Assembly: GCA_001778095.1 (NCBI GenBank)
Contig: MFGA01000020.1
Location: 75,805 to 139,804, forward strand
Length of the DNA: 64,000 nucleotides
Origin: Candidatus Falkowbacteria bacterium RIFOXYA2_FULL_38_12
Lineage (GTDB): Bacteria; Patescibacteriota; Patescibacteriia; XYB2-FULL-38-15
Reading direction: 5' to 3'
The notes under the pieces are model-generated. The model searched no databases and was not told the origin of the DNA. It was given only the letters and a program-made list of their open reading frames with translations. This document shows positions 1 through 11,783 of this stretch, piece after piece; within the stretch, counting starts at the first letter, position 1, and every line of letters starts with the position of its first letter. The position numbers and the translations under genes are program-made.

Positions 1-375
1 AAGAAACTAGGTGTTGGCATGGTCTCAATGGGTCCGTTTATCCCTTGCGATAACACGCCCCTTAAAGATATGGAACACGGTGATGTAGAGCTTTCATTAA
101 AAATGATCGCCGTTTCTCGCCTGGTTATGCCCAAAGCGCGTATTCCAATAACAACAGCACTGGAGACTTTGGATCCACTGAATACCCGTAAAAGAGGGCT
201 ACAGGGCGGGGCGAATTCTCTGATGTTTAATCTGACACCGGCAGAATATCGCAGAAAATATAAAATTTATCCAAATAAATTTTACGGTCGAGACAAAGAT
301 TTGGAAGATTTTGCCTTATATAAAGGAAAGGAAAGTTGGGAAATGTTAGAGAGGGAGTTTAAAAAATATCTTTAA
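1..375 (+). CDS. hydE: [FeFe]-hydrogenase maturase HydE, C-terminal part (5' end outside window)
   Basis: Frame runs open from window start. C-terminal region aligns by eye to biotin-synthase-like HydE (GPFIP..DTPL, LKM.A..R, IP.TTA, GANS.M.N.TP..YR..Y..YP.K). Confidence 0.65.
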   Translation, partial: KKLGVGMVSMGPFIPCDNTPLKDMEHGDVELSLKMIAVSRLVMPKARIPITTALETLDPLNTRKRGLQGGANSLMFNLTPAEYRRKYKIYPNKFYGRDKDLEDFALYKGKESWEMLEREFKKYL

Positions 376-388
376 TTACATTTTAGTT

Positions 389-1759
389 ATGAAAATAATT
401 GATGAGAAAAAGATTATTGGAATTTTAGAAAAGACAAAAAACGCGAGCTGGGACAATTTTGAAAAAATAATTGAAAAGGCGAAAAAAATAAAAAGTTTAG
501 ACTTGGAGGAAGTGGGCGTTTTGGTAAATATTAGCGACGAGAAGCTGATAAAAAAAATGCAAGAAGCGGCGCATGAAATAAAGATGGCGATTTACGGCCC
601 GCGATTAGTTTTGTTTGCTCCGCTTTATATTTCCAGTTTTTGCGTCAATGATTGCGCGTATTGCGGTTTTCATCAACGCAACAAAGCGCCACGCAAAAAG
701 TTGTCTTTGAATGAAGTGAAGAAACAGGTGGAGATTTTGGAGGATATGGGGCACAAACGATTACTTTTGGAGTTTGGAGAGGATCCCGAAAAAAATTCAA
801 TTGATTATGTTATTGATGTTATTAAAACTATTTACTCAGTCAAAAAAGAGCGTGGAGCAATTAGGAGAGTTAATATAAATATCGCCGCGACGAGTGTAGA
901 AAATTACAAAAAATTAAAAGAAGCGGGTATAGGTACCTACCAGCTTTTTCAAGAAACTTATCACCGGCCGACTTATGAAAAGCTACATAGCGGTCCGAAG
1001 GCCGACTATGATAGGCAGATCACGGCCATGGATCGCGCTTTTGCGGGCGGAATTGACGATTTGGGGATAGGTGTGTTATTTGGCCTTTATGATTGGCGGT
1101 TTGAAGTTTTGAGTTTGGTAGCGCACGCGGATTATATGGAGAAAAATTTTGGCGTTGGACCACATACTATCTCCGTCCCGCGTTTTCGACCAGCGCCGAC
1201 GGTTGATTTCAAAGCAGAACATGAAGTCAGCGACAAAGATTTTTTAAAACTTATCACAATTTTACGTTTAGCAGTCCCGTATACTGGTATGATAATGTCT
1301 ACTCGAGAATCTCCAAAAATAAGACGCCGAGCTTTTGAAATAGGAATTTCACAGACAAGTGCTGGTTCACGTACAACTCCCGGAGGGTACAATCAAAAAA
1401 AAGAAGAAGAATTGGCTCAATTTAATTTAAGTGATCATCGTACCTTAGACGAGACAGTCTACGATATTTGTAATTTGGGTTACTTGCCGAGTTTTTGCAC
1501 GGCATGCTATAGAAGTGGCCGAACCGGCGACGAATTTATGAAATATGCCAAAGCAGGAACCATACAAAATTTTTGTCAGCCAAATGCCATTTCCACCTTT
1601 ATGGAATATTTAATGGATTACGCTTCACCGGAAACGCGCGAAGTTGGAGAAAAGGTAATTCGACAACAAATGAAGAATATCAATAGTGCGGAGGTAAGGA
1701 CGAATCTAGAAAATAGACTGGAAAAAATTAGAAAAGGAGAGAGAGATTTGTATTTTTAG
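389..1759 (+). CDS. hydG: [FeFe]-hydrogenase maturase HydG (radical SAM tyrosine lyase, ThiH family)
   Basis: N-terminal radical SAM CxxxCxxC (CVNDCAYCGF). C-terminal CX2CX22C motif (CTAC...22 aa...C) diagnostic of HydG versus ThiH. 456 aa. Confidence 0.7.
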   Translation: MKIIDEKKIIGILEKTKNASWDNFEKIIEKAKKIKSLDLEEVGVLVNISDEKLIKKMQEAAHEIKMAIYGPRLVLFAPLYISSFCVNDCAYCGFHQRNKAPRKKLSLNEVKKQVEILEDMGHKRLLLEFGEDPEKNSIDYVIDVIKTIYSVKKERGAIRRVNINIAATSVENYKKLKEAGIGTYQLFQETYHRPTYEKLHSGPKADYDRQITAMDRAFAGGIDDLGIGVLFGLYDWRFEVLSLVAHADYMEKNFGVGPHTISVPRFRPAPTVDFKAEHEVSDKDFLKLITILRLAVPYTGMIMSTRESPKIRRRAFEIGISQTSAGSRTTPGGYNQKKEEELAQFNLSDHRTLDETVYDICNLGYLPSFCTACYRSGRTGDEFMKYAKAGTIQNFCQPNAISTFMEYLMDYASPETREVGEKVIRQQMKNINSAEVRTNLENRLEKIRKGERDLYF

Positions 1760-1819
1760 ACTCTATATTTTGAAATATTAATTCAATTAATTACAGAATA
1801 AGTGGTATTATAAAAACAC

Positions 1820-2332
1820 ATGAAAGCATTAATAATAATCGCTCAAAAAGATTTCAGAGACGAGGAATTTTTTGAGCCAAAAGAAATTTTAGAGAAAAAT
1901 GGCATTGAAGTAAAGGTGGCGAGCGAAGAATTGGCAATGGCGTACGGAAAAATGGGCGGAGAATTTATGCCGGATTTAAAACTGGAAGACGCGAAGGCGG
2001 AAGATTTTGACGCGATTATTTTTGTCGGAGGAATCGGGGCGGAAATGTATTTAGACGATCCGGTTGCTCATAGATTAGCCAATGATTTTCATGGCACGGG
2101 AAAAATTGTGGCGGCAATTTGTTTTGCTCCGTTGATTTTAGCGCATGCGGGAATACTTAACGGGAAAAAAGTGACAGCTTGGATCGGCGGAAAAGAAGAT
2201 TTGGAGGCGGCGCATAGCGCTGTTTACACCGGCAAGGCAGTGGAAGTTGACGGCAATATTATTACTGGGTCTGGTCCTGCGGCGGCGAAAGAGTTTGGAG
2301 AAAAAATAGTTCAGGCTTTATTGAAGGGATAA
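1820..2332 (+). CDS. DJ-1/PfpI family protein
   Basis: 170 aa. Conserved nucleophile elbow region AAICFAPLILAHAGIL and overall DJ-1/PfpI layout. Confidence 0.65.
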   Translation: MKALIIIAQKDFRDEEFFEPKEILEKNGIEVKVASEELAMAYGKMGGEFMPDLKLEDAKAEDFDAIIFVGGIGAEMYLDDPVAHRLANDFHGTGKIVAAICFAPLILAHAGILNGKKVTAWIGGKEDLEAAHSAVYTGKAVEVDGNIITGSGPAAAKEFGEKIVQALLKG

Positions 2333-2443
2333 ACTATGAAACGCGATTATTGCCTGAGCTTGTCGAAGGCATAATCGCGTACCAAGACGCCCTTCGACAA
2401 GCTCAGGGAATAAAATTTAGAGCTCAACAATTAATAGTGGCTT

Positions 2444-3196
2444 ATGAAGAAAAAATTAAAACTTGTTATTGCCAGCATGACTTGTTGCGAAGGATGCCAG
2501 GTGGAAATTTTGAATTTGGGAGAAAGATTGTTAAATATTTTTGAAATTTTTGATCTTGGAAATTTTTCTTGGGTTAAAGAAAAAGAAGAAATTGATTATT
2601 ACGATGTTGCCTTGATTGAGGGAACACCATTAACCGACGAGGATATTCAAAGTTTGAAAGAATTAAGAAAAAAATCAAAAATAATCGTGGCTATGGGAAC
2701 TTGCGCCCATCTCGGTGGAGTGCAAGAAATAAAAAATTATACGGAGAATAGAAAAAATGAAAAAGCAAAATACGTCTATTCAAAATATCAGAGAATAGAA
2801 AATAAGGTTGTTGTACCCCTTAGCAAGATTGTCAAAATTGATTATGTCGCACCCGGATGCCCAATCAATAAAGATGAGCTTTATAATATTCTTTGCGACA
2901 TTGCCATAGGAAAATCACCGAAAATTGCCCCGCGGCCGGTTTGTTTTGAATGCCAGAATAATGGCTATCCATGTTTATTGCAAAAAGGGGAGCCCTGCCT
3001 CGGGCCGATCACTCTTGGTGGATGCGACGCGGTATGTTTAAAAAGTAATAGATTTTGTTATGGTTGCCGTGGTCCGATAAACGCGAAAAGCCCGATAATA
3101 AAAAGGCATTTGGAAAATATAAAAAAATTGGTTGGAGAAAAATATTTGGCGGAAATTCTTGAAACTTTTGGAGCCGAGGATGATTTTATAAAATAA
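2444..3196 (+). CDS. [NiFe] hydrogenase small subunit, group 3 (sulfhydrogenase delta-like)
   Basis: N-terminal proximal-cluster motif TCCEGCQ (compare TSCYGCQ of Pyrococcus sulfhydrogenase delta). Cys-rich C-terminal FeS cluster ligands. Immediately precedes the large subunit. Confidence 0.7.
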   Translation: MKKKLKLVIASMTCCEGCQVEILNLGERLLNIFEIFDLGNFSWVKEKEEIDYYDVALIEGTPLTDEDIQSLKELRKKSKIIVAMGTCAHLGGVQEIKNYTENRKNEKAKYVYSKYQRIENKVVVPLSKIVKIDYVAPGCPINKDELYNILCDIAIGKSPKIAPRPVCFECQNNGYPCLLQKGEPCLGPITLGGCDAVCLKSNRFCYGCRGPINAKSPIIKRHLENIKKLVGEKYLAEILETFGAEDDFIK

Positions 3197-3200
3197 ATTT

Positions 3201-4472
3201 ATGAAAATAACCATAAATCATTTAGCAAAAATTGAAGGTCATGCCGGATTTTTTGCTGATATTTTGAATGGCGACATAAAAAACGCTAAAATCAAAGTTA
3301 AAGTCGGAGCGAGATTGATTGAGGGAATTGTTTTAAATAGGAATTATGTTGAGACTCCAATTGTTACTTCAAGAATTTGCGGGATCTGTTCGGTCGCTCA
3401 CAATCTAACGAGCATTAAAGCCCTGGAAAACGCTTTTAATATAAAGATTACGCCAAAAGCGGAAATACTGCGCAAAATTTTATTTTTGGCCGAACCGATT
3501 CAAAGCCACGCCACCCATCTTTTCTTTTTGTCATTGTCGGATTTCTTCAAGTACGACAATGACCTAGATCTAATAAAAAAATATCCGGATTTAACAAAAA
3601 AAATAGTTTCAATCAGGGATTTTGGGAATAGAATAAAAGAAGTTATCGGCGGAAGGGATATGCATCTTTTATCCACCGAAATTGGAGGATTTAGGAAAGA
3701 GCCGGAAGAAAAGGAGTTGAAAAAAATATATTTTGCGGTAGATAAAGTTTTAGAGGAGGCGATAGTAGTGGCGGAATTTTTTAAAAAATTAAATTATCCA
3801 GATTATGAGAGAAAAATTGAACTTGTCGGATTGGTGGGAAAAAATGAATATTCTTTTTATAAAGGAGAAATGAAAACCTCTTCCGGAGAGAAGACGAGCA
3901 TTAAAAGTTTCTATAAAGAATTATCGGAAGAGCAAACAAATTACGATCCAACCAAAAGAGTGAAACATAAAGGGAGAGAGTTTATGGTTGGGGCGATCGC
4001 GAGACTAAATTTGAGCCATAGCTTACTGAATCCGGAAGCTAAAAAATTATTGGATTTTTTTGGAAGTAAAAAAACGGGCAATGCTTTAATCACCAAAAAT
4101 ACTTTTCATAATATTTATGCCCAAGCCGTGGAACTGGTGCATTGCGCGGAAGAAGTGAAAAATTTATTGGATAATTATTTTAAAGATAAATCAAAAATAT
4201 TATTAGTTAAATATAGAATGCGAAACGGAGAAGGTCTGGCCGCGACCGAGGCGCCACGGGGGACTCTTTATCACTATTATAAAGTAGATCGTTATGGCAT
4301 TATAAGGGAATGCAATATAATCCCGCCGACCGCGCAGTTTTTGGACAGCCTGGAAAATGATCTGGAAAAATACTTATCGGAAGCGGAGATAAAAAATGGC
4401 GAAGATAGGAAAAGAAAAATAAATATGCTGGTGCGGGCGTATGATCCATGTATGACCTGCGCGACACACTAA
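3201..4472 (+). CDS. [NiFe] hydrogenase large subunit, group 3-like
   Basis: N-terminal RICGICSVAH (RxCGxCxxxH) and C-terminal DPCMTCATH (DPCxxCxxH) Ni-Fe ligand motifs. 423 aa. The ORF ends exactly at the His, with no C-terminal extension. Confidence 0.85.
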   Translation: MKITINHLAKIEGHAGFFADILNGDIKNAKIKVKVGARLIEGIVLNRNYVETPIVTSRICGICSVAHNLTSIKALENAFNIKITPKAEILRKILFLAEPIQSHATHLFFLSLSDFFKYDNDLDLIKKYPDLTKKIVSIRDFGNRIKEVIGGRDMHLLSTEIGGFRKEPEEKELKKIYFAVDKVLEEAIVVAEFFKKLNYPDYERKIELVGLVGKNEYSFYKGEMKTSSGEKTSIKSFYKELSEEQTNYDPTKRVKHKGREFMVGAIARLNLSHSLLNPEAKKLLDFFGSKKTGNALITKNTFHNIYAQAVELVHCAEEVKNLLDNYFKDKSKILLVKYRMRNGEGLAATEAPRGTLYHYYKVDRYGIIRECNIIPPTAQFLDSLENDLEKYLSEAEIKNGEDRKRKINMLVRAYDPCMTCATH

Positions 4473-4554
4473 AGAAAATTAAAAGTTAAAAATGAAAAGT
4501 TAAAAGTTAAAGATTATATAACTTTTCACTTTGCACTTTTAATTTCTCACTTCT

Positions 4555-4818
4555 ATGCATGATTTACACGAAGCTGATAGAATATTAAAGCTGGTCTTGG
4601 ACCATGCCGAAAGAAATAATTTTAAAAAAGTTACCAAAATCATTATAGGTCTTGGTAATATTATTGAGCACGGCTTGAATATTGATCCCGATAATTTAAA
4701 ATTTAATATTTCCATGTTGGCGCGAGAGACAAAAGCCGATGAAGCCGAAATTGTTGTGGAAAAAATAGATGGCGATACGTGGGAATTAAAAGAAATTGAG
4801 GGGGATAAAAATATATGA
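4555..4818 (+). CDS. HypA-like small protein lacking the zinc-finger cysteines (possible Ni-binding N-terminal domain only)
   Basis: 87 aa. N-terminal MHDLHE resembles the MHE Ni-binding motif of HypA, but there is no CxxC...CxxC. Position directly after the hydrogenase genes. Confidence 0.3.
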   Translation: MHDLHEADRILKLVLDHAERNNFKKVTKIIIGLGNIIEHGLNIDPDNLKFNISMLARETKADEAEIVVEKIDGDTWELKEIEGDKNI

Positions 4819-6029
4819 AAATGAAAAAAATAAGCGAGATAAAAAATTTAAAAGATAAAAAAGTTTTGTTGCGCGTTGATTACAATGTTCCCTTGGAAAA
4901 GAAAAAAGCGAGCAATGGAAAATATAAAATGGTTGTTCGGGACGACACGAAAATCAAAGAAACCCTCCCTACAATCAATTATCTTTTGGAAAAAGGGGCT
5001 AAGGTTATTTTGATAAGCCATTTGGGCGACCCAAAGGGGAAAATAGTCAAAGATTTAACTATGGAACCGATTGGGGAAGCTCTTTATAAATTGTTAAAAG
5101 AAAAAATGGAGTGCACAGAGATAGTTAAGGATAATTATCCTTTTGATTTTATTGATAAAATGGCGGGCGGAGAAGTGGTTCTTCTTGAAAATCTGAGATT
5201 CAATATCGGCGAAGAAAAAAATGACACTAAATTTGCTAAATATTTGGCATCCCTCGCTGACATTTATGTTAATGATGCTTTTGCCGTTTCGCATCGCGAC
5301 CACGCTTCCGTTTCCAAAATTACTAATTTTTTGCCAAGTTATGCCGGGTTACTCTTGGAAAAAGAAATTGAAGTTTTGTCTAAGTTATTGGCTAAACCAA
5401 AAAAACCATTTGTCGCGGTAACGGGAGGAGCAAAGATCTCCAAAAAGATAGGTCTTATAAAAAATCTATTAAAAAAAGTTGATTGTTTGATGATTGGAGG
5501 GGCAATGGCTAATAATTTTTTTAAGGCTTTCGGTTATAATGTCGGCGCGTCTCTTGTTGAACTGGATAAAATAATTTTTGTTAGAAAATTTTTGAAAAAT
5601 AAGAAAATACTTTTACCGATCGACTTAGTCGTTGGAGATTTTGATGGGAAAAAAGGTAGAATAGTTCAAGTGTCCGGCAGTTCGGAAAATATTTGTGAAA
5701 AAAACGAAGCTATTTTGGATATAGGTCCGGAGACAATAAAAATGTATGAAGAAGTTATCAGTAAGGCAAAAACTCTGATTTGGAATGGGCCAATGGGGTA
5801 TTTTGAAAATACGGAATATAATAAGGGAAGTGATGAGATAAGCAGAATCATCGCGGAATATTCAAAAAAAGGTCTTTTAAGTGTCGTTGGAGGCGGAGAA
5901 ACTTTATCAATAATAAAAAAGACGGGAGTAGCGACTTCGATTGCTCACGTTTCCACCGGTGGCGGGGCAATGTTAGAATTTTTAGAAGGAAAAGTTTTGC
6001 CGGGAATCAGGCCGTTAATAAGACAATAA
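4815..6029 (+). CDS. pgk: phosphoglycerate kinase
   Basis: 404 aa. Typical PGK N-terminal LLRVDYNVPL and C-terminal GGGA..LEFLEGK.LPG motifs. Confidence 0.9.
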   Translation: MKMKKISEIKNLKDKKVLLRVDYNVPLEKKKASNGKYKMVVRDDTKIKETLPTINYLLEKGAKVILISHLGDPKGKIVKDLTMEPIGEALYKLLKEKMECTEIVKDNYPFDFIDKMAGGEVVLLENLRFNIGEEKNDTKFAKYLASLADIYVNDAFAVSHRDHASVSKITNFLPSYAGLLLEKEIEVLSKLLAKPKKPFVAVTGGAKISKKIGLIKNLLKKVDCLMIGGAMANNFFKAFGYNVGASLVELDKIIFVRKFLKNKKILLPIDLVVGDFDGKKGRIVQVSGSSENICEKNEAILDIGPETIKMYEEVISKAKTLIWNGPMGYFENTEYNKGSDEISRIIAEYSKKGLLSVVGGGETLSIIKKTGVATSIAHVSTGGGAMLEFLEGKVLPGIRPLIRQ

Positions 6030-6086
6030 ACTGATAAACAAAGATAGAACATAAAATAACTATTTAAATCTTAAACAAACAAATCT

Positions 6087-6863
6087 ATGGGAAATTTTTG
6101 GCCACAATGGCGCGAGAACAAACTTTTTACAGTTATCGTTACTCTGGCAATGCTCGGAGTCCTTGGCGTTCTTGGAACAATCATTGCTAAAGATCTAAAA
6201 GGGTATCAGTATATTGGCAGACCGACGGCGGAAAGAGATGTGATTAATATCTCCGGAGAAGGAAAAGTGACAGGTATTCCTGATATTGCCACAATTCAGG
6301 TCGGACTTATTACGGAAAAAGGAGATGTTAAAACAGCGCAGAAAGAAAATACAGATAAACTAAATCGTTTGATCACAACCTTAAAAAATTTAGGGGTTGA
6401 AGATAAAGACATTCAAACAAGTTATTATAATATTTATCCGCAATATGATTGGACGGATGGAAAACAACAATTGAGAGGCTATCAAGTCAGCCAGGGGGTT
6501 GCAATCAAGATAAGAAATTTAAGTAAAATTGGTGATATGCTCGCCGCAGCAGGGGAAGGTGGCGCGAATCAAGTTAGTGGCTTAACATTTAATATTGATG
6601 ATCCGGAAAAATTGAAACAAGAAGCAAGGTTGAAAGCCTTAGCAAATGCTAAAGAAAAAGCGGAAGCGTTGGCCGAAGCCGCTGGCGTTAAACTAGGGAA
6701 AGTGGTTTCTTTCAGTGAGTACTCCGATTCGCCGGCCGATTACAGGACAATGATGGACAGCTATGGCGCCGGAGGCGGGGAGATGAAAGTGGCTTCTCCT
6801 GTAATTGAAAGTGGTAGTATTGATATAGTGGTGACAGCAACAGTGGGGTATGAGATAAAATAG
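6087..6863 (+). CDS. SIMPL/DUF541 domain protein (periplasmic, oxidative-stress-defense-like)
   Basis: N-terminal TM helix. SIMPL-like core (GYQVSQGVAIKIRNL..., LKALANAKEKAEALAEAAG). Confidence 0.55.
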   Translation: MGNFWPQWRENKLFTVIVTLAMLGVLGVLGTIIAKDLKGYQYIGRPTAERDVINISGEGKVTGIPDIATIQVGLITEKGDVKTAQKENTDKLNRLITTLKNLGVEDKDIQTSYYNIYPQYDWTDGKQQLRGYQVSQGVAIKIRNLSKIGDMLAAAGEGGANQVSGLTFNIDDPEKLKQEARLKALANAKEKAEALAEAAGVKLGKVVSFSEYSDSPADYRTMMDSYGAGGGEMKVASPVIESGSIDIVVTATVGYEIK

Positions 6864-7025
6864 ACCCGATGAATAATAATCTTTCGTTACGAAACGCAGT
6901 AATTTTAGGATAAAAATTTAGAAAAGCGACGATGTTTATATGATTAGATATAAGCGGAGGAGCTTTTGCAAATTTTTAGCCAAAATTACTAGTTGCAGTA
7001 GAAAGAATTATTATTCAGTGGGTCT
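6862..7025 (-). repeat. ~160-nt structured repeat, copy 1 (inverted orientation relative to copies 2 and 3)
   Basis: Internal ~120 nt nearly identical to the reverse complement of 40906..41064 and 57362..57520. Flanked by its own ~19-bp terminal inverted repeat. Abuts the gpmI start codon. Confidence 0.8.
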
Positions 7026-7037
7026 AATGAACAATTT

Positions 7038-8585
7038 ATGGAAAAGAAAAAAACAACAGCCCTTATTATTCTTGATGGATGGGGGCTTGCTCCGCCTGGT
7101 CAGGGAAACGCCGTTTCTCTTGCTAAAACTCCGACCATGTCAGAACTCTGGAAAAATTTTCCGCACACCGAACTTATCGCGCATGGAAAAAGGGTCGGGT
7201 TGCCGGGTAATCAAGAGGGAAATTCTGAAGCCGGTCATATGAACCTGTCTTCCGGTTTTATTGTTAAACAAGACGCGGTTTACATTAATGATAGTATTGA
7301 AGATGGAACTTTTTTCAAGAATAATGCCTTCGCTGAAGCGATAAGGCACGCTAAAAAATATAAGTCAAAAGTCCATTTGATGGGGCTTCTTTCTAATGGA
7401 GAAAGCGCTCATTCTTTTCCCACCCATCTTTATTCGCTTTTGGATCTTTTGCATCAGAATAAAGTTGGAGATGTTTTTCTGCATTTGTTTACAGATGGCC
7501 GAGATTCTGGTAGATTTGCCTCAATAAAGCTCCTTTCAAAATTAAGGACGCATTTTCACGGAAATGAGAGAATAGCTTCTATTATGGGTAGATTTTACGC
7601 AATGGATAGAGTAAAAAATTGGAAAAGAACAGAATTGGCCTATAATGCCATGGTATTGGGAGGGGAACTAATTGCCGAAAGCGCTGAGGCGGCAATTTCA
7701 ACAGCCTACAACAGGGGAGAAACGGATGAGTTTATTTTGCCAACAGTTATTTTTAAGGATCATGGAGCGACATCAAGGATAGATGATAATGATGCAGTTA
7801 TATTTTTTAACCTTCGTTCAGACAGGGCAAGGGAACTGACAAAAACAATTACTCAAGAAAATTTTAATGGAAAAAATGGAGGATCATTCAAAAGGGAAAA
7901 AGTCTTAAAGAACATTTGTTTTGTCGCCATGACCGATTTCGGTCCGGACTTGCCCGGGGTTATTACAGCTTTTCCCAGTCGCGATATTGAAAATAGTTTA
8001 CCTTCATGTTTAAAAGAGAAGAGACAAATATATATTGCCGAAACCGAGAAATATGCGCATGTTACTTATTTTTTTAACGGAGGATACGCAGATCCGATTT
8101 TTGGAGAAGAGAGAGTGAGAATACCATCGCCCAATGTTCCCAGATATGAAGATAAACCGGAAATGAGCGCGCCGGAGATTACTAAAAATGTAGAATCTTT
8201 TATTCATTCAGGAGTTTATGATTTCATTACGGTTAATTTTTGCAATCCGGATATGATCGGTCATACGGGTAATATAAAAGCGGGGATTAAAGCGGTTAAT
8301 GTAGTTGATATTTGTTTAAAGAGATTGATTAAGGAAATTTTCAGAAATAAAGGCGTCGCTATTGTTACCGCCGATCATGGAAACATTGAAGGGATGATAA
8401 ATCTAAAAACAGGAGAAATAGATACCGAGCATTCAACCAATCCGGTTCCGTTTATTGTCGCCGGAGAAAATTTTAAAAATAAAAAAATAAAAAAAGGGAT
8501 TTTGGCGGATGTCGCGCCAACCATTCTTGATATTATGGATCTTCCGAAACCGAAGACAATGACGAGAAAAAGCCTATTAAATTAA
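7038..8585 (+). CDS. gpmI: 2,3-bisphosphoglycerate-independent phosphoglycerate mutase
   Basis: 515 aa. N-terminal LIILDGWGLAPPG and metal-binding regions typical of iPGM. Confidence 0.9.
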   Translation: MEKKKTTALIILDGWGLAPPGQGNAVSLAKTPTMSELWKNFPHTELIAHGKRVGLPGNQEGNSEAGHMNLSSGFIVKQDAVYINDSIEDGTFFKNNAFAEAIRHAKKYKSKVHLMGLLSNGESAHSFPTHLYSLLDLLHQNKVGDVFLHLFTDGRDSGRFASIKLLSKLRTHFHGNERIASIMGRFYAMDRVKNWKRTELAYNAMVLGGELIAESAEAAISTAYNRGETDEFILPTVIFKDHGATSRIDDNDAVIFFNLRSDRARELTKTITQENFNGKNGGSFKREKVLKNICFVAMTDFGPDLPGVITAFPSRDIENSLPSCLKEKRQIYIAETEKYAHVTYFFNGGYADPIFGEERVRIPSPNVPRYEDKPEMSAPEITKNVESFIHSGVYDFITVNFCNPDMIGHTGNIKAGIKAVNVVDICLKRLIKEIFRNKGVAIVTADHGNIEGMINLKTGEIDTEHSTNPVPFIVAGENFKNKKIKKGILADVAPTILDIMDLPKPKTMTRKSLLN

Positions 8586-8624
8586 AAGTTTCCACCTCTG
8601 CCAAGGCTGCGGTGGGCAAGAAAA

Positions 8625-8700
8625 ATGTAAAGTGAAAAATTACAGTTAAAAGTCCAAAGTTAGAAAGACTTTTAACTTTTAATTTATCACTTTTAACTTA
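8625..8700. repeat. AT-rich palindromic AAAGTGAAAA/GTTAAAAGT element
   Basis: Imperfect hairpin built from AAAGTGAAAAATTACAGTTAAAAGT and the reverse-complement words ACTTTTAACTTTTAATTTATCACTTTTAACTT. Ends 4 nt before the GTG start of the second gpmI. Confidence 0.7.
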
Positions 8701-8704
8701 ATCT

Positions 8705-10279
8705 GTGCGTCCAAAACCAGTAATACTTATTATCCTTGATGGGTGGGGAATAGCGCCACCCGGTCCGGGCAACGCGATCGCTTTAGCCAGGACTCCGAAT
8801 ATAAGTAAGCTAATAAATAATTATTCGGCAATGACCCTTAGAGCCTCCGGTGATGAGGTTGGCTTATCGTGGGGAGAAATGGGAAATTCCGAAGTTGGCC
8901 ATTTAAATCTAGGTGTTGGCAGAATCTTTTATCAGACCTTGCCCAGAATAAATAAAGCCATTGACGGCGAGTCTTTTTTTGAAAGCAGTGTTTTAAAAGA
9001 GGCAACAGAACATATTAAAAAAAACAATTCGAGCCTCCACTTGATGGGTCTTTTGAGTTCCGGACGGGTTCACTCAACTATTGATCATCTCTTTTCTCTG
9101 CTAAAGTTTGCCAGGGATAATAAAATAAAAAAAGTTTTTATTCATGTCTTTTTGGATGGCCGAGATACTATTTATAATAGCGGAGCAGATTTTATTAAAA
9201 AGCTGGAAGAAAAGATAAAAGAATATCGCGTAGGGAAAATTGCCACACTCTCCGGACGTTTTTACGCGATGGATCGAGATAATCGTTGGGACAGAACGGA
9301 AAAAGCCTATCGGGCAATTGTTGAGGGAGTTAGTGATGAATCTTGCGATAGCGCGGAAAAAGCGGTTCAGCTGTCTTATGGCAAAGAAGTCTATGATGAG
9401 GAGTTTATTCCGATCATCATTACGGAAAAGGGACAGCCGGTAGCCAAAATTGAAAAAAATGACGCGGTTATCTTTTTTAATTACAGAGCGGACAGAGCGC
9501 GACAAATAACCAAGGCTTTTGTCGCGGATAATTTTGATAAATTTCAAAGAGAAAAAATAGATAATCTATTTTTTGCGACAATGACCGAATATGAAAAAGA
9601 TTTGCCGGTGAAAATTATTTTTCCGCCGGAAGAAATAAAAGTTTCGTTGGCAAAAGTGATCTCGGAGGCGGGATTAAAACAATTGCACATTGCCGAAACC
9701 GAGAAATACGCCCATGTGACATTTTTTTTCAATGGCATGAAGGAAGAAGAGTTTCCCGGGGAAACGCGCATTATAGTTCCTTCCCCAAAAGTTTCTTCTT
9801 ATGAAGAAAAACCGTCTATGTCTGCCCAAGAAATTACAGAAAAATTAATAAAAGAAGTAATGAGTCAAAAATATGATTTTATAGTCGCCAATTTTGCCAA
9901 CGCTGATATGGTCGGGCACACCGGAAATATGGAGGCAACCAAAGAGGCTATAGAAATGGTAGATAAATGTGTTGGAAAAATAGTCGATGTCGCCTTATCC
10001 GTAAACGGCGCTGTGGCTATAACCGCCGATCATGGCAATGCCGAGGAGCTGATGAATTTAGAAACATCGGAAATGGATAAAGAGCATAGTAATAATCCGG
10101 TTCCTTTTATCTTGATTCGAAAAGATGAAAAGGGTTCGGTAGCAGGAGGCGCGGGAAATGAAAATATTGACTTGAGTATGGCTTCTCCGGCCGGAATTTT
10201 AGCCGACGTTGCTCCAACAATTTTAAAAATTATGGAAATACAGAAGCCGGACGAAATGACGGGAGCGGAATTAATATAA
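8705..10279 (+). CDS. gpmI: 2,3-bisphosphoglycerate-independent phosphoglycerate mutase, second paralog
   Basis: 524 aa. GTG start. VILIILDGWGIAPPGPGNAI plus conserved iPGM core. Tandem to the first copy. Confidence 0.85.
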   Translation: MRPKPVILIILDGWGIAPPGPGNAIALARTPNISKLINNYSAMTLRASGDEVGLSWGEMGNSEVGHLNLGVGRIFYQTLPRINKAIDGESFFESSVLKEATEHIKKNNSSLHLMGLLSSGRVHSTIDHLFSLLKFARDNKIKKVFIHVFLDGRDTIYNSGADFIKKLEEKIKEYRVGKIATLSGRFYAMDRDNRWDRTEKAYRAIVEGVSDESCDSAEKAVQLSYGKEVYDEEFIPIIITEKGQPVAKIEKNDAVIFFNYRADRARQITKAFVADNFDKFQREKIDNLFFATMTEYEKDLPVKIIFPPEEIKVSLAKVISEAGLKQLHIAETEKYAHVTFFFNGMKEEEFPGETRIIVPSPKVSSYEEKPSMSAQEITEKLIKEVMSQKYDFIVANFANADMVGHTGNMEATKEAIEMVDKCVGKIVDVALSVNGAVAITADHGNAEELMNLETSEMDKEHSNNPVPFILIRKDEKGSVAGGAGNENIDLSMASPAGILADVAPTILKIMEIQKPDEMTGAELI

Positions 10280-10425
10280 AAAATCCTAAATCCGAATTTC
10301 TAAATCCTAAACAATATCTAATGACTAAAATTCAAATGTTCAAAACAAAATTGTTTGAAATTTTGAAAATTAGTATTTTGAATTTGTTTAGAGTTTAGGA
10401 TTTTGGATTTCGAATTTAAAAATTT

Positions 10426-11244
10426 ATGCCCGAATTACCCGAGGTTGAAACCATAAAAAACCAATTGCTAGATCAGATTTTGAATAAAAAAATTATTGGC
10501 GTAGAAGTGATAAAACCGAGAATGATAAATGTTTCGGTTGCGGATTTTAAAAAAAAGATTGAAGGGGAAAAAATAAAAAATATTCGTCGGCGAGCAAAGA
10601 TGTTGCTAATGGATTTTTCAAATGATTACAGTTTGATTATTCATTTGAAAATGACGGGCCAGTTGATTTATGACGGAGGGACTGGACGAGGGACTCCGCA
10701 CATTATTTATACATTTGCCGATAAAAGCCAATTAAAGCATTATGACGCGAGACTTTTCGGCTATGCTAAACTTTTTAAAACCAGAGAGGCGGATGATTTT
10801 ATTAAAGAGAGCGACATTGGTCCGGAAATTTTAGAGAAAGAGTTTACTCTTCTAAAATTTGAAGAATTGTTAAAACAAAGAAAAAAAAGTAAAATTAAGC
10901 CATTACTCATGGATCAGAGTTTTATCGCCGGAGTGGGTAATATTTACGCGCAGGAGGCTTGTTTTTGCGCAAAAGTTTCCCCCCAAAGACGAGTTGAGGC
11001 GTTAGAAGAGTTTGAGATTAAAAAAATTTATGATTGTTTAAGAAAAATTTTAGTCTCGGCCGTTAAAGACGGAGGAACGTCGATGGATTCCTATGTTGAC
11101 GCAAAAGGAGAAAAGGGGAAATATATTTTTAAGCTCAAAGTTTATGGCAAAGGGGGAGAGGGGTGTAGTGAATGTGGAGAAAAGATTAAAACAATTAAAC
11201 TTGGCGGGCGGGGAACAAGTTTTTGCCCGAATTGCCAAAAATAA
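10426..11244 (+). CDS. mutM: formamidopyrimidine-DNA glycosylase
   Basis: MPELPEVE N-terminus with catalytic Pro2. C-terminal zinc finger CSECG...CPNCQ. Confidence 0.85.
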   Translation: MPELPEVETIKNQLLDQILNKKIIGVEVIKPRMINVSVADFKKKIEGEKIKNIRRRAKMLLMDFSNDYSLIIHLKMTGQLIYDGGTGRGTPHIIYTFADKSQLKHYDARLFGYAKLFKTREADDFIKESDIGPEILEKEFTLLKFEELLKQRKKSKIKPLLMDQSFIAGVGNIYAQEACFCAKVSPQRRVEALEEFEIKKIYDCLRKILVSAVKDGGTSMDSYVDAKGEKGKYIFKLKVYGKGGEGCSECGEKIKTIKLGGRGTSFCPNCQK

Positions 11245-11246
11245 AT

Positions 11247-11783
11247 ATGGATTTTTTTCTTTTTCAAGAAATAAATAATTTAGCCGGCCAATGGAAGATT
11301 TTGGATTATTTTGGAATTTTTTGCGCCGAATACCTTATTTTTTTGATGGCCACGGCAGTCATAATTTTATTTTTGACAAGAGGGGATAGCTCAGAAACAA
11401 AAAAAGAAAATATTTTAAAAGTATCTTTGTCGGTGGTGGGAAGTTATTTATTAAAAATCGTTATTCAATTATTTTATTTTAGACCAAGGCCGTTTGTTGA
11501 TCATGAAGTTGTAAAGCTCATTGATAAGAGTTCGAGTAGCGCCGCATTTCCATCCGGCCACACCATTGTCGCTTTTGCTTTAGCTTTTTCAATTTTCTAC
11601 TATAATAAAAAACTAGGCGCGTTATTTATTTTTTTAGCCACGTTGGTTAGTTTGGGGAGAATTTATACGGGCGTACACTATCCACTGGACGTGGTTTTTG
11701 GCATTATTGTCGCCTGGATCACAGTTTATGCGATAGGGAAAATGCCGTGGAAAAAATTAATCAATAGATTTATTCAAAAATAA
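11247..11783 (+). CDS. PAP2-family phosphatase (undecaprenyl-diphosphatase-like)
   Basis: PSGHT and SR.....H phosphatase motifs. Multiple TM segments. Start moved to the first ATG after the mutM stop. Confidence 0.6.
   Translation: MDFFLFQEINNLAGQWKILDYFGIFCAEYLIFLMATAVIILFLTRGDSSETKKENILKVSLSVVGSYLLKIVIQLFYFRPRPFVDHEVVKLIDKSSSSAAFPSGHTIVAFALAFSIFYYNKKLGALFIFLATLVSLGRIYTGVHYPLDVVFGIIVAWITVYAIGKMPWKKLINRFIQK

What the first reader, a model, noticed from the sequence alone, without database searches (positions are those of the whole stretch)
1..4818. [FeFe]-type maturase genes (hydE, hydG) co-localised with a group-3-like [NiFe] hydrogenase whose large subunit has no C-terminal extension, plus a Cys-less HypA-like ORF
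HydE and HydG (the latter with its diagnostic CX2CX22C C-terminal cluster motif) normally build the H-cluster of [FeFe] hydrogenases. Here they sit directly upstream of [NiFe] small and large subunit genes, with L1 RICGICSVAH and L2 DPCMTCATH. The large subunit terminates exactly at the His, so no maturation-protease cleavage site is present. The following 87-aa ORF keeps a HypA-like MH(D/E) N-terminus but has lost all zinc-finger cysteines. Only two hydrogenase subunits are present, with no FAD/NAD-binding beta or gamma genes in the window. Together this suggests a streamlined or unconventional hydrogenase maturation pathway, or a mixed locus serving an [FeFe] enzyme encoded just upstream.
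Basis: partly seen in the sequence, partly recalled or inferred. Interest (0 to 1): 0.55.

Follow-up and report, generated by a model that had tools for sequence, protein, structure and literature searches.

The report
[FeFe]-type maturases wired into [NiFe] hydrogenase
A candidate-phyla bacterium encodes a nickel-iron hydrogenase whose operon carries, instead of the usual HypD/E/F cofactor factory, the radical-SAM enzymes HydG and HydE (HydE fused to the iron chaperone HypC), which suggests an undescribed tyrosine-based way of making the CO/CN ligands of [NiFe] hydrogenases.

Summary
Window 1-4818 encodes the 3' end of hydE, a bona fide hydG, a DJ-1/PfpI protein, group-3b-like [NiFe] small and large subunits (the large one ends exactly at the His of DPCMTCATH) and an 87-aa Cys-less HypA.

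The window edge hid the key facts. On the parent contig (Ca. Falkowbacteria) the "missing" beta and gamma subunits lie directly upstream. HydE is a 423-aa fusion with an N-terminal HypC chaperone domain (MCLTIPG...). No hydA or hydF lies within 10 kb upstream.

The fusion is a conserved family:
- At least 80 (up to about 310) species-level genomes carry it, in Patescibacteria, Planctomycetota, Thermodesulfobacteriota and DPANN archaea.
- hydG follows it in about 63% of loci.
- A [NiFe] large subunit (3b-like, group-1-like or group-1/2-like) lies within 10 kb in about half.
- hypA, hypB or an endopeptidase gene are sometimes adjacent.
- HypD, HypE, HypF, HydF and HydA are never found nearby (1.26 Mb searched).
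- HypC-HydE-HydG triple fusions occur next to 3b hydrogenase genes.

Best reading: HydG plus HypC-HydE supply the Fe-CO/CN unit to the [NiFe] large subunit, probably replacing HypDEF. Genome-wide absence of HypDEF and any biochemistry remain untested. I found no paper proposing this pathway.

The parts
1..375 (+). 3' end (last 124 codons) of hypC-hydE. The full 423-aa protein starts 897 bp upstream of the window (L001 8716-9987) and is an N-terminal HypC domain fused to a complete HydE radical-SAM maturase.
   Evidence: The full protein passes both curated NCBIfam cutoffs: HydE TIGR03956 284.8 > 254.6 (residues 88-393) and HypC TIGR00074 56.3 > 48 (residues 1-67). The N-terminus is MCLTIPGQV. 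The AF2 model has pLDDT 91, pTM 0.90, and its HydE part superposes on T. maritima HydE with TM 0.85-0.91.
389..1759 (+). hydG, the radical-SAM tyrosine lyase that builds an Fe-CO/CN synthon. It starts 13 bp after hydE.
   Evidence: TIGR03955 scores 598.6 bits (cutoff 312) and 576 bits to HydG 4WCX. It has CX3CX2C, C-terminal CX2CX22C, and the His aligned to the residue I take, from memory, to be the dangler-iron His of 4WCX. hydG follows the fusion gene in 46 of 73 loci that have at least 2 kb downstream.
1820..2332 (+). DJ-1/PfpI-family protein (170 aa). A recurrent neighbour of the fusion gene; role unknown.
   Evidence: PF01965, 139.9 bits. A homologue lies directly downstream of the fusion in eight other loci (Counter count of 9 includes L001, the window's own contig).
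2444..3196 (+). [NiFe] hydrogenase small (delta) subunit, group-3b type, 250 aa.
   Evidence: Oxidored_q6 81.5 bits; best NCBIfam hit ShyD 180 bits, below its equivalog cutoff.
3201..4472 (+). [NiFe] hydrogenase large (alpha) subunit, group-3b type, 423 aa. L1 is RICGICSVAH and L2 is DPCMTCATH. The stop codon directly follows the His, so there is no C-terminal extension.
   Evidence: The best solved relatives are P. furiosus SH-I alpha and T. kodakarensis HyhL (about 200 bits). Their 428-aa precursors carry 4 residues after the His. The window protein ends where the mature 419-aa chain ends.
4474..4548 (+). AU-rich hairpin in the 82-bp spacer between the large subunit and mini-hypA. Possible RNA processing or stability element; function not established.
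   Evidence: MFE -17.8 kcal/mol, z = -3.66 against 200 shuffles.
4555..4818 (+). Mini-HypA. It is the nickel-binding N-terminal domain of HypA (MHD...) with the whole zinc-finger domain deleted. It overlaps pgk by 4 bp.
   Evidence: Pfam HypA 34.7 > 28.9. Alignment to E. coli HypA shows a clean deletion of about residues 72-105. The family has 77 clusters, of which 76 are 82-98 aa and one is a 59-aa fragment; every one that carries a source name is from Patescibacteria.

Best explanation
The locus is a four-subunit, group-3b-type cytosolic [NiFe] hydrogenase operon of a Candidatus Falkowbacteria bacterium. The gene order is beta, gamma, hypC-hydE, hydG, dj-1, delta, alpha, mini-hypA. It carries its own unconventional cofactor-assembly genes.

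Proposed mechanism:
1. HydG cleaves tyrosine and assembles CO and CN on an iron atom. This is its established chemistry in [FeFe] maturation.
2. The HydE domain processes that organometallic iron unit.
3. The HypC domain fused to HydE takes the Fe-CO/CN fragment on its invariant N-terminal cysteine and inserts it into the apo large subunit. In the canonical pathway HypC does this after HypD/E/F have built Fe(CN)2CO from carbamoyl phosphate.
4. Mini-HypA then supplies nickel.
5. No endopeptidase step is needed, because the large subunit is made without a C-terminal extension.

Shown here: gene identities, the fusion, its conservation, and its genomic linkage to hydG and to [NiFe] genes.

Inferred: that the module acts on the [NiFe] enzyme; that it replaces HypDEF rather than supplementing it; and all of the chemistry.
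For: (1) HydE is fused to a HypC domain, and each part passes its curated family cutoff. The 120 closest protein clusters all carry both Pfam domains. In 78 aligned members M1, C2, L3, P6 and the radical-SAM cysteines are invariant.

(2) A scan of GTDB species representatives found 310 relatives. The best 80 all cover residues 1 to about 420, so all are fusions. By record title they come from Patescibacteria, Planctomycetota/Brocadiaceae, Delta-/Thermodesulfobacteriota and DPANN archaea.

(3) Neighbourhoods were analysed in 83 distinct loci plus one duplicate (about 1.26 Mb). One search counts are out of 84 and include that duplicate locus. hydG lies directly downstream in 54 (46 of 73 loci with at least 2 kb downstream). 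A [NiFe] large subunit lies within 10 kb in 45 (18 of 33 fully flanked loci). The small subunit is present in 39, beta in 28 and gamma in 29.

(4) The module sits beside different [NiFe] types. These are 3b-like enzymes (CPR and delta-type bacteria), a 484-aa group-1/2-like enzyme with adjacent histidine kinase and response regulators (Planctomycetota; order fusion-hydG-hypA-hypB-small-large), and a group-1-like enzyme with a putative cytochrome b-like 196-aa ORF (not annotated), a protease, hypA and hypB.

(5) There were no tblastn hits (E <= 1e-5) to E. coli HypD, HypE or HypF. There were no HydA H-cluster, HydF, HypD or HypE signature motifs among 1367 ORFs. The 64-kb window and five further loci also gave none. 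No HydA or HydF Pfam family appears in any precomputed gene table.

(6) HypC-HydE-HydG triple fusions exist (881 and 906 aa). For the 881-aa protein all three parts exceed their curated cutoffs; for the 906-aa protein HydG and HydE do, while HypC scores 45.8, just under the cutoff of 48. Both lie in or next to group-3b hydrogenase operons.

(7) HydG and the HydE domain are close to the characterised enzymes, so the known CO/CN-forming chemistry is plausible.

[quoted passage not shown] Its text never mentions HypD or HypF.
Against: Genome-wide absence of hypD/E/F, hydF and hydA could not be tested. Only up to 10 kb on each side of each locus, and 74 kb of the window's own genome, were visible.

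About a third of fusion loci have no hydG within reach. Some complete CPR hydrogenase operons have the fusion but no hydG nearby (L049, L065, L070, L080, L082, L084, L087). One operon has only a solo HypC (L094). In 11 of 33 fully flanked loci the fusion gene has neither hydG nor a hydrogenase nearby.

Canonical HydG delivers Fe(CO)2(CN), whereas the [NiFe] site needs Fe(CO)(CN)2, so an extra ligand-exchange step must be assumed.

The fused HypC domain lacks the His that aligns with E. coli HypC His51, so it may not handle iron as HypC does. Seven loci encode an additional solo HypC that keeps this His.

Some DPANN lineages that carry the fusion are reported to have [FeFe] hydrogenases (PMC11216029).

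There are no expression or biochemical data.
Confidence: 0.55

Rival explanations
1. The module supplements a canonical HypCDEF set encoded elsewhere in the genome. For example, it could be the long-sought anaerobic source of the CO ligand only, with the cyanides still coming from carbamoyl phosphate via HypE/F on a HypC-HypD scaffold.
For: Genome-wide absence of HypDEF is untested. Seven loci have an extra solo HypC with the canonical His directly upstream of the fusion, which fits a hand-over to a normal Hyp chaperone. A 2025 review (PMC12134894) calls the anaerobic origin of CO the most pressing open question, so a dedicated CO route is plausible. HydG makes more CO than the [NiFe] site needs relative to CN.
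Against: hypD, hypE and hypF were never seen in 1.26 Mb around 83 fusion loci, whereas hypA, hypB and endopeptidase genes were. In the Planctomycetota loci the fusion and hydG sit immediately upstream of hypA-hypB, and hypC, hypD and hypE, which follow hypAB in the E. coli operon, are absent from these loci. CPR genomes are about 1 Mb and strongly streamlined.
Confidence: 0.22
2. HydG and HydE mature an [FeFe] hydrogenase encoded elsewhere. The position inside a [NiFe] operon and the HypC fusion would then reflect only co-regulation of hydrogen-metabolism genes.
For: HydG and the HydE domain are very similar to canonical [FeFe] maturases. In 11 of 33 fully flanked loci the fusion has no hydrogenase nearby. 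[FeFe] hydrogenases occur in some DPANN and CPR lineages (PMC11216029; own knowledge).
Against: No hydA or hydF lies in any of 83+ loci or in the window. HydF, the obligatory scaffold in the canonical pathway, is never adjacent. A covalent fusion to the [NiFe]-specific chaperone, conserved across phyla with an invariant Cys2, is hard to explain by co-regulation, as are the triple fusions next to 3b genes. The linkage is to several different [NiFe] types and never to an [FeFe] enzyme.
Confidence: 0.1
3. The hydrogenase-like enzyme carries a non-standard active site, or the module serves some other iron-carbonyl or cyanide cofactor. One possibility is Ni-Fe(CO)2(CN) delivered unchanged from HydG. 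In that case neither maturation scheme fully applies.
For: The HydG product has CO:CN of 2:1, the opposite of the [NiFe] site. The fused HypC domain lacks the canonical His. DJ-1 and DUF6390 proteins of unknown role recur in the module.
Against: All four Ni/Fe-binding cysteines are present, and so is the Arg of the R-x-x-DPC segment, which I recall as a cyanide hydrogen-bond partner (VRAYDPCMTCATH). The subunit set is that of ordinary 3b enzymes.
Confidence: 0.08

Closest known systems
Canonical [NiFe] maturation (HypA-F plus endopeptidase, as in E. coli and T. kodakarensis)
   Same: A HypC-type chaperone domain with the essential N-terminal Cys is present. A HypA-type nickel-binding domain is present. 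In some relatives HypB and a HycI/HybD-type protease are also present. The target is a standard [NiFe] large subunit with L1 and L2 cysteines.
   Different: No HypD, HypE or HypF is seen anywhere near the module. HypC is fused to a radical-SAM enzyme and lacks the His51 equivalent. HypA lacks its zinc domain. There is no HypB in the window locus. There is no C-terminal extension or protease in the window locus.
[FeFe] H-cluster maturation (HydE, HydF, HydG)
   Same: HydG and the HydE domain pass the equivalog cutoffs. They keep the cluster-binding motifs and resemble the crystallised enzymes (576 and 249 bits).
   Different: No HydF scaffold and no HydA target are nearby. HydE carries a [NiFe] chaperone domain. 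The genomic partners are [NiFe] subunits and hypA/hypB.
Group 3b [NiFe] (sulf)hydrogenases (P. furiosus SH-I/II, T. kodakarensis Hyh) and the CPR 'hyd1' clade of Jaffe et al. 2020 (PMC7304191)
   Same: The alpha, beta, gamma, delta subunit set is the same, and the best sequence matches are to these enzymes. Jaffe et al. already noted that beta and gamma are not always adjacent to the small subunit, and that a neighbouring family shows HypC homology.
   Different: The large subunit has no 4-aa C-terminal tail. Maturase genes are inserted between gamma and delta. Jaffe et al. did not identify HydE, HydG or the fusion.
'Unusual HydE-HypC fusion' in the [NiFe] operon of Ca. Centrionella anaeramoebae (bioRxiv 10.64898/2026.04.11.717937)
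   Same: It describes the same kind of fusion protein inside a group-3 [NiFe] operon with HypA, HypB and HybD.
   Different: It is mentioned in one sentence, with no analysis, no HydG link and no mechanistic proposal, in a different phylum.
Large subunits naturally lacking a C-terminal extension (H2-sensing HoxC/HupV, CO-induced CooH; own knowledge)
   Same: The protein ends at or near the His/Arg of the L2 motif, so no endopeptidase is needed.
   Different: As far as I recall, those enzymes still depend on HypCDEF. In this work about 32 of 42 large subunits linked to the fusion are extension-less, across 3b-like and group-1/2-like types.
HypX (aerobic CO-ligand synthesis from formyl-THF; PMC12134894)
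   Same: It is an accessory route that supplies a diatomic ligand to the [NiFe] iron.
   Different: The enzymes and chemistry are unrelated. HypX works together with HypCDEF and makes only CO.

Membership tests
HydG (TIGR03955) | Score above the curated equivalog cutoff | tested here: met
   598.6 bits against 312.15; 576 bits to PDB 4WCX.
HydG (TIGR03955) | Radical-SAM CX3CX2C, the C-terminal CX2CX22C auxiliary-cluster motif and the dangler-iron His | tested here: met
   CVNDCAYC and CTAC-x22-C are read directly from the sequence. A His is conserved at the position aligned to the residue I take, from memory, to be the dangler-iron His of 4WCX.
HydG (TIGR03955) | Works with HydF and HydA ([FeFe] hydrogenase) in the same organism | tested here: inconclusive
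   No hydF or hydA in the window, in the 10 kb upstream, or in 83 related loci.
HydE (TIGR03956) | Score above the curated cutoff, with the radical-SAM motif and the HydE fold | tested here: met
   284.8 > 254.6 for the full protein. The motif is CVNNCLYC. Foldseek TM is 0.85-0.91 to T. maritima HydE.
HydE (TIGR03956) | Stand-alone maturase architecture | tested here: not met
   An N-terminal 67-aa HypC domain is fused to it. All 120 nearest clusters share this architecture.
HypC/HybG/HupF (TIGR00074) | Score above the cutoff and the N-terminal Met-Cys...Pro motif | tested here: met
   56.3 > 48. M1, C2, L3 and P6 are invariant in 78 sequences.
HypC/HybG/HupF (TIGR00074) | Conserved His (E. 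coli His51) implicated in iron binding (own knowledge) | tested here: not met
   The aligned position is S, M, I, A, T, V or Q in the fusions. Solo HypCs in the same loci keep the His.
HypC/HybG/HupF (TIGR00074) | Partner HypD scaffold present | tested here: inconclusive
   No HypD was found by tblastn or by the GPGCPVC motif in any locus. This was not testable genome-wide.
Group 3b [NiFe] hydrogenase | Large subunit with the L1 RxCGxCxxxH and L2 DPCxxCxxH cysteines | tested here: met
   RICGICSVAH and DPCMTCATH.
Group 3b [NiFe] hydrogenase | Four subunits: alpha, delta, an AsrA-like beta and an FAD/NAD-binding gamma | tested here: met
   Beta (ShyB/AsrA-like) and gamma (PRK08345, 269.9 bits) lie upstream in L001. 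Delta and alpha lie in the window.
Group 3b [NiFe] hydrogenase | Closest relatives are characterised 3b enzymes, with formal HydDB or phylogenetic placement | tested here: inconclusive
   The best PDB and NCBIfam hits are SH-I/SH-II/Hyh, but all are below the equivalog cutoffs. No tree or HydDB classification was run. Jaffe 2020 places CPR sequences in a 3b-related clade.
Group 3b [NiFe] hydrogenase | Precursor with a short C-terminal extension removed by an endopeptidase | tested here: not met
   The stop codon follows the His directly. The PDB precursors have 4 more residues.
HypA (PF01155 / TIGR00100) | Family score | tested here: inconclusive
   It is above the Pfam gathering score (34.7 > 28.9) but below the NCBIfam equivalog cutoffs (35.4 < 88.1; 41.8 < 146), because only profile positions 1-68 match.
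HypA (PF01155 / TIGR00100) | N-terminal Met-His-Glu nickel site | tested here: inconclusive
   The motif is MHD instead of MHE, and it is invariant in the 12 aligned mini-HypAs. Metal binding was not tested.
HypA (PF01155 / TIGR00100) | Zinc site with two CxxC pairs | tested here: not met
   The protein has no cysteine. The alignment shows the whole zinc domain deleted. 76 of the 77 related clusters are 82-98 aa; one is a 59-aa fragment.
Canonical Hyp pathway | HypD, HypE and HypF encoded by every organism that has a [NiFe] hydrogenase | not testable with these tools
   They are absent from all sequence that could be read, but complete genomes could not be scanned.

The most novel reading that the evidence does not exclude
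In these lineages the CO and CN ligands of the [NiFe] active site come from tyrosine through HydG, with no HypD/E/F and no carbamoyl phosphate. The iron-carbonyl-cyanide unit is built on, or handed to, the N-terminal cysteine of a HypC domain fused to HydE. After Met removal, the free amine and thiol of that cysteine could stand in for the free cysteine ligand of the HydG synthon. This would be a third, hybrid hydrogenase-maturation pathway and an evolutionary bridge between the [FeFe] and [NiFe] systems. It would also give a defined anaerobic source of the CO ligand.
Probability: 0.4. Interest if true: 0.92.

Novelty: new variant of a known kind. Interest (0 to 1): 0.8.

Why it matters
[NiFe] cofactor assembly is taught as universally dependent on the six Hyp proteins. 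A 2025 review (PMC12134894) calls the anaerobic origin of the CO ligand the field's most pressing open question. A conserved, multi-phylum module in which the [FeFe]-type tyrosine lyase HydG and a HypC-HydE fusion sit in [NiFe] operons, in place of hypCDE, offers a concrete and directly testable candidate route for CO and CN.

It would also matter in four other ways:
- It would show cross-talk between two maturation systems thought to be independent.
- It could explain orphan hydE/hydG genes in genomes without [FeFe] hydrogenases.
- It would change how such genes are annotated. They are currently labelled '[FeFe] hydrogenase maturase' and used as [FeFe] markers.
- It would give a compact gene set (about 3-4 maturation genes) for heterologous [NiFe] hydrogenase production.

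Tried and rejected
- **[FeFe] genes upstream.** There are none in 10 kb.
- **Rest of the window.** I scanned the rest of the 64-kb window for hyp or hyd genes by tblastn and through precomputed Pfam tables. It holds only housekeeping genes. One look-up failed because of a wrong start codon.
- **Literature.** None found a paper proposing HydG or HydE in [NiFe] maturation. There is one passing mention of a HydE-HypC fusion, and Jaffe 2020 notes HypC homology in a neighbouring family. The term 'hypE' matched 'hyper...', which made uninformative. Supplement searches found nothing.
- **Plasmid collection.** A protein search found only ordinary unfused HydE and HydG.
- **Promoter and terminator scan of 1-6200.** The counts were not above shuffled expectation.
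- **Structure model of the fusion.** It is confident, but coordinates are not exposed. The distance from Cys2 to the HydE cavity could not be measured, and the model adds no mechanistic evidence.
- **'The extension-less large subunit is required by the module.'** Rejected. The hyd2-type CPR loci, L027, L032 and L096 have C-terminal tails, mostly with a protease gene, and still carry the module.
- **'HydG here is a diverged paralogue with new chemistry.'** Rejected. It scores as high against T. italicus HydG (576 bits) as other fusion-linked HydGs do against it (about 450-645 bits for full-length hits).
- **Genome-wide presence or absence of hypDEF, hydF and hydA.** No available tool can scan a named genome, so this remains the main gap.

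Full report
**1. What is in the window**

There are seven co-directional ORFs.

- Window 1-375 is the last 124 codons of a HydE (BATS domain, partial TIGR03956 hit).
- Window 389-1759 is a 456-aa HydG. TIGR03955 scores 598.6 bits against a curated cutoff of 312. The motifs are CVNDCAYC and CTAC-x22-C.
- Window 1820-2332 is a 170-aa DJ-1/PfpI protein.
- Window 2444-3196 is a 250-aa [NiFe] small subunit (best hit ShyD).
- Window 3201-4472 is a 423-aa large subunit (best hits ShyA and HydA of the Pyrococcus sulfhydrogenases). It has RICGICSVAH and ends ...DPCMTCATH followed by a stop.
- Window 4555-4818 is an 87-aa protein that matches only the first 68-72 positions of the HypA profiles. It starts MHD and contains no cysteine.
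- pgk follows and overlaps the previous gene by 4 bp.

The HydG scores 576 bits against the crystallised T. italicus HydG, and a His is conserved at the position I take, from memory, to be the dangler-iron His of 4WCX. The large subunit's nearest solved relatives are P. furiosus SH-I alpha and T. kodakarensis HyhL. Their 428-aa precursors extend 4 residues past the His. The window protein stops where the mature 419-aa chain stops.

**2. What the window edge hid**

An exact-sequence look-up of HydG found the parent contig. It is a 165.7-kb ENA contig, and the sequence is also in NCBI GCA_001780335.1, Candidatus Falkowbacteria from the Rifle aquifer. Window position equals L001 position minus 9612.

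Upstream of hydG lie the following genes:
- A 423-aa protein with both HupF_HypC and Radical_SAM domains.
- A 274-aa NAD_binding_1/DHODB_Fe-S protein (the hydrogenase gamma subunit; PRK08345, 269.9 bits).
- A 350-aa ferredoxin-like protein (the beta subunit; ShyB/AsrA-like).
- An OmpR-type response regulator and a PAS/GAF histidine kinase.
- Housekeeping genes.

There is no hydA and no hydF.

So the enzyme is an ordinary four-subunit 3b-type complex. Its operon is interrupted, between gamma and delta, by hypC-hydE, hydG and dj-1.

The 423-aa protein passes two curated NCBIfam cutoffs at once. HydE scores 284.8 > 254.6 over residues 88-393, and HypC/HupF scores 56.3 > 48 over residues 1-67. It begins MCLTIPGQV, the hallmark HypC N-terminus. 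PDB searches agree: residues 78-400 match T. maritima HydE (249 bits) and residues 1-64 match T. kodakarensis HypC. An AlphaFold2 model built on 78 homologues is confident (pLDDT 91, pTM 0.90), and its barrel superposes on T. maritima HydE with TM 0.85-0.91.

**3. The fusion is a conserved, widespread family**

The 120 best protein clusters, down to 51% identity, all carry both domains. M1, C2, L3, P6 and the radical-SAM cysteines are invariant.

A scan of one genome per GTDB species found 310 relatives. The best 80 all align from residue 1 to about 420. By record title they belong to three groups:
- Many Patescibacteria: Falkow-, Moran-, Berkel-, Peregrini-, Buchanan- and Jorgensenbacteria.
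- Planctomycetota/Brocadiaceae (Ca. Kuenenia, Ca. Wunengus) and Delta-/Thermodesulfobacteriota/Syntrophales.
- DPANN archaea: Aenigmat-, Alti- and Woesearchaeota.

Some record titles, for example the 'binchicken' MAGs, may be unreliable.

At 50% clustering, about 17 of the top 150 representatives are fusions. Two of them, 881 and 906 aa, are HypC-HydE-HydG triple fusions. For the 881-aa protein all three parts exceed their curated cutoffs. For the 906-aa protein HydG and HydE do, while HypC scores 45.8, just under the cutoff of 48.

**4. Neighbourhood analysis**

I analysed 83 distinct loci, about 1.26 Mb, with the window proteins and E. coli HypA-F and HycI as queries. One search counts are out of 84 and include one duplicate locus (L012 = L007).

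- hydG lies directly downstream of the fusion on the same strand, usually within 6-280 bp, in 54 loci. That is 46 of the 73 loci with at least 2 kb downstream.
- A [NiFe] large subunit lies within 10 kb in 45 loci, and in 18 of the 33 loci with at least 8 kb on both sides.
- The small subunit is present in 39 loci, beta in 28, gamma in 29, mini-HypA in 16, full-length HypA in 8, HypB in 7 and a HycI-type protease in 4-6.
- No locus gave a hit to HypD, HypE or HypF. No ORF carried HydA H-cluster motifs, the HydF C-terminal motif, the HypD GPGCPVC motif or the HypE PRIC terminus. The same holds for the 64-kb window and for five loci fetched later.

The associated hydrogenases are of different types:
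- 3b-like enzymes in CPR and delta-type bacteria.
- A 484-aa extension-less group-1/2-like enzyme with a Tat-less small subunit and an adjacent histidine kinase and response regulators, in Planctomycetota. The gene order there is fusion-hydG-hypA-hypB-small-large.
- A group-1-like enzyme with a putative cytochrome b-like 196-aa ORF (not annotated), a protease, hypA and hypB (L029).

The triple fusions lie inside a Falkowbacteria 3b operon (L095) and next to a beta-gamma-delta-alpha-hycI cluster (L096).

**5. Interpretation**

Three independent kinds of genomic evidence tie HydG and HydE to [NiFe] rather than [FeFe] hydrogenases:
- Domain fusion to the [NiFe]-specific chaperone, up to a triple fusion.
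- Conserved operonic linkage to hydG.
- Recurrent placement beside [NiFe] structural genes and hypA, hypB or protease genes across phyla.

The genes that normally make Fe(CN)2CO (hypD, hypE, hypF), and the [FeFe] partners (hydF, hydA), never appear.

The most economical mechanism has five steps. HydG makes the Fe-CO/CN unit from tyrosine. HydE processes it. The fused HypC domain carries it on Cys2 into the apo large subunit. HypA, a zinc-less mini version in CPR, delivers nickel. Proteolysis is skipped where the large subunit has no tail.

Only the gene identities and linkages are shown. The chemistry is inferred from the established functions of HydG, HydE and HypC.

**6. Caveats**

- I could not scan whole genomes, so HypDEF or HydA/HydF may be encoded elsewhere. 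This keeps two rivals alive: the module as a CO-only supplement to a normal Hyp set, and service to a distant [FeFe] enzyme.
- About a third of loci lack an adjacent hydG, including otherwise complete CPR hydrogenase operons (L049, L065, L070, L080, L082, L084, L087).
- A Komeilibacteria operon has only mini-HypA and a solo HypC (L094).
- HydG's known product, Fe(CO)2(CN), has the wrong CO:CN ratio for the [NiFe] site.
- The fused HypC domain lacks the His aligned with E. coli His51. Seven loci encode an extra solo HypC that keeps it.

**7. The two side features**

*Extension-less large subunits.* About 32 of 42 fusion-linked large subunits end at the His. The exceptions are the hyd2-type CPR enzymes (tail HFLKxxW...), L027, L032 and L096. 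L027, L032 and L096 have a recognisable HycI-type protease gene nearby. Five of the six hyd2-type loci have only a 127-aa ORF with no Pfam hit, which I guess is a divergent endopeptidase. The missing tail is therefore a parallel streamlining and not a requirement of the module.

*Mini-HypA.* It is a conserved family of 77 clusters. 76 are 82-98 aa and one is a 59-aa fragment; every one that carries a source name is from Patescibacteria. The 12 aligned members share an invariant MHD start, a clean deletion of the zinc domain and a conserved (I/V)EHG segment.

**8. Prior knowledge**

- Jaffe et al. 2020 (PMC7304191) defined CPR-specific 3b clades. They noted that beta and gamma are sometimes not adjacent to the small subunit, and that a neighbouring family has HypC homology. 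The paper does not mention radical SAM, HydE or HydG.
- A 2026 preprint on a Legionellales symbiont mentions 'an unusual HydE-HypC fusion' in its [NiFe] operon, in one sentence.
- The 2025 minireview on [NiFe] cofactor biosynthesis (PMC12134894) states that six Hyp proteins are needed and that the anaerobic CO source is unresolved. It does not mention HydG.
- Greening et al. 2024 (PMC11216029) note that archaeal HydEFG rarely co-occur with [FeFe] hydrogenases.
- Ten full-text searches found no proposal of a HydG/HydE route for [NiFe] enzymes. The library lacks most subscription journals, so prior description cannot be excluded.

**9. Verdict**

The 'two-subunit' and '[FeFe] enzyme just upstream' ideas are refuted.

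The finding is best described as a new variant of [NiFe] maturation built from known parts. It has strong genomic support, no biochemical support, and one decisive gap that could not be tested here, namely genome-wide absence of HypDEF. Interest is 0.8.

Noticed in passing
window 1820-2332; L051, L052, L057, L066, L067, L074, L079, L085: A DJ-1/PfpI gene recurs directly downstream of the hypC-hydE fusion in eight other loci. In those loci neither hydG nor a hydrogenase lies within 10 kb. It has the nucleophile Cys (AAICFAP) but no following His, so it is DJ-1-like rather than PfpI-like. It may be a further component of the module, for example one that handles a HydG by-product. Its role is unknown.
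   Followed up: partly
L007 12781-13455: In a related operon the slot between hydG and the small subunit holds a DUF6390 protein. Its C-terminus has a weak, sub-threshold HypC-like match (PF01455, E = 2.8e-4).
   Followed up: no
window 4474-4548: An AU-rich hairpin of about 27 bp lies in the spacer between the large-subunit stop and the mini-hypA start (MFE -17.8 kcal/mol, z = -3.66). It may be an RNA processing or stability element.
   Followed up: partly
L055 10001-10231, L058, L073, L076, L046, L022, L060: A solo HypC gene that keeps the canonical His (LLAHGDLA) sits immediately upstream of the HypC-HydE fusion, whose own HypC domain lacks that His. These organisms therefore have two HypC paralogues with presumably different roles.
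   Followed up: partly
L094 (GCA_048538235.1, 860-kb contig) 4036-11570: A Komeilibacteria 3b operon has mini-HypA followed by a solo HypC. Its true start is MCMTVP at 10257; the gene call missed two codons. There is no hydE or hydG within 10 kb. Two unannotated ORFs (260 and 157 aa) occupy the slot between gamma and the small subunit.
   Followed up: partly
L001 4162-6830 (upstream of window); L023, L036, L044: A two-component system (OmpR-type response regulator plus PAS/GAF histidine kinase) lies directly upstream of the hydrogenase beta gene. In Planctomycetota the module-linked, extension-less group-1/2-like hydrogenase is followed by a histidine kinase and response regulators, which is reminiscent of H2-sensing hydrogenases.
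   Followed up: no
L014, L017, L035, L048, L062 (e.g. L048 15858-16241): CPR 'hyd2-type' large subunits with a C-terminal tail (HFLKxxW...) are accompanied by a 127-aa ORF (VGNLLVEEDSLP...). It looks like a very divergent maturation endopeptidase but has no Pfam hit.
   Followed up: partly
window 44080-53658: A 3192-aa ORF with no Pfam hit on record follows a 636-aa Big_5-like protein. It is probably a giant surface protein, typical of CPR.
   Followed up: no
window 7038-8585 and 8705-10279: Two tandem paralogues of cofactor-independent phosphoglycerate mutase (iPGM) lie downstream of pgk. The hydrogenase operon is embedded in a glycolysis gene cluster (pgk, eno and iPGM in relatives).
   Followed up: no
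L009, L010, L033 (Ca. Kuenenia), L039, L053, L061: In several genomes the fusion gene stands alone, with neither hydG nor a hydrogenase within 10 kb, so the module can be dispersed. Whether those genomes encode the partner genes elsewhere is unknown.
   Followed up: no
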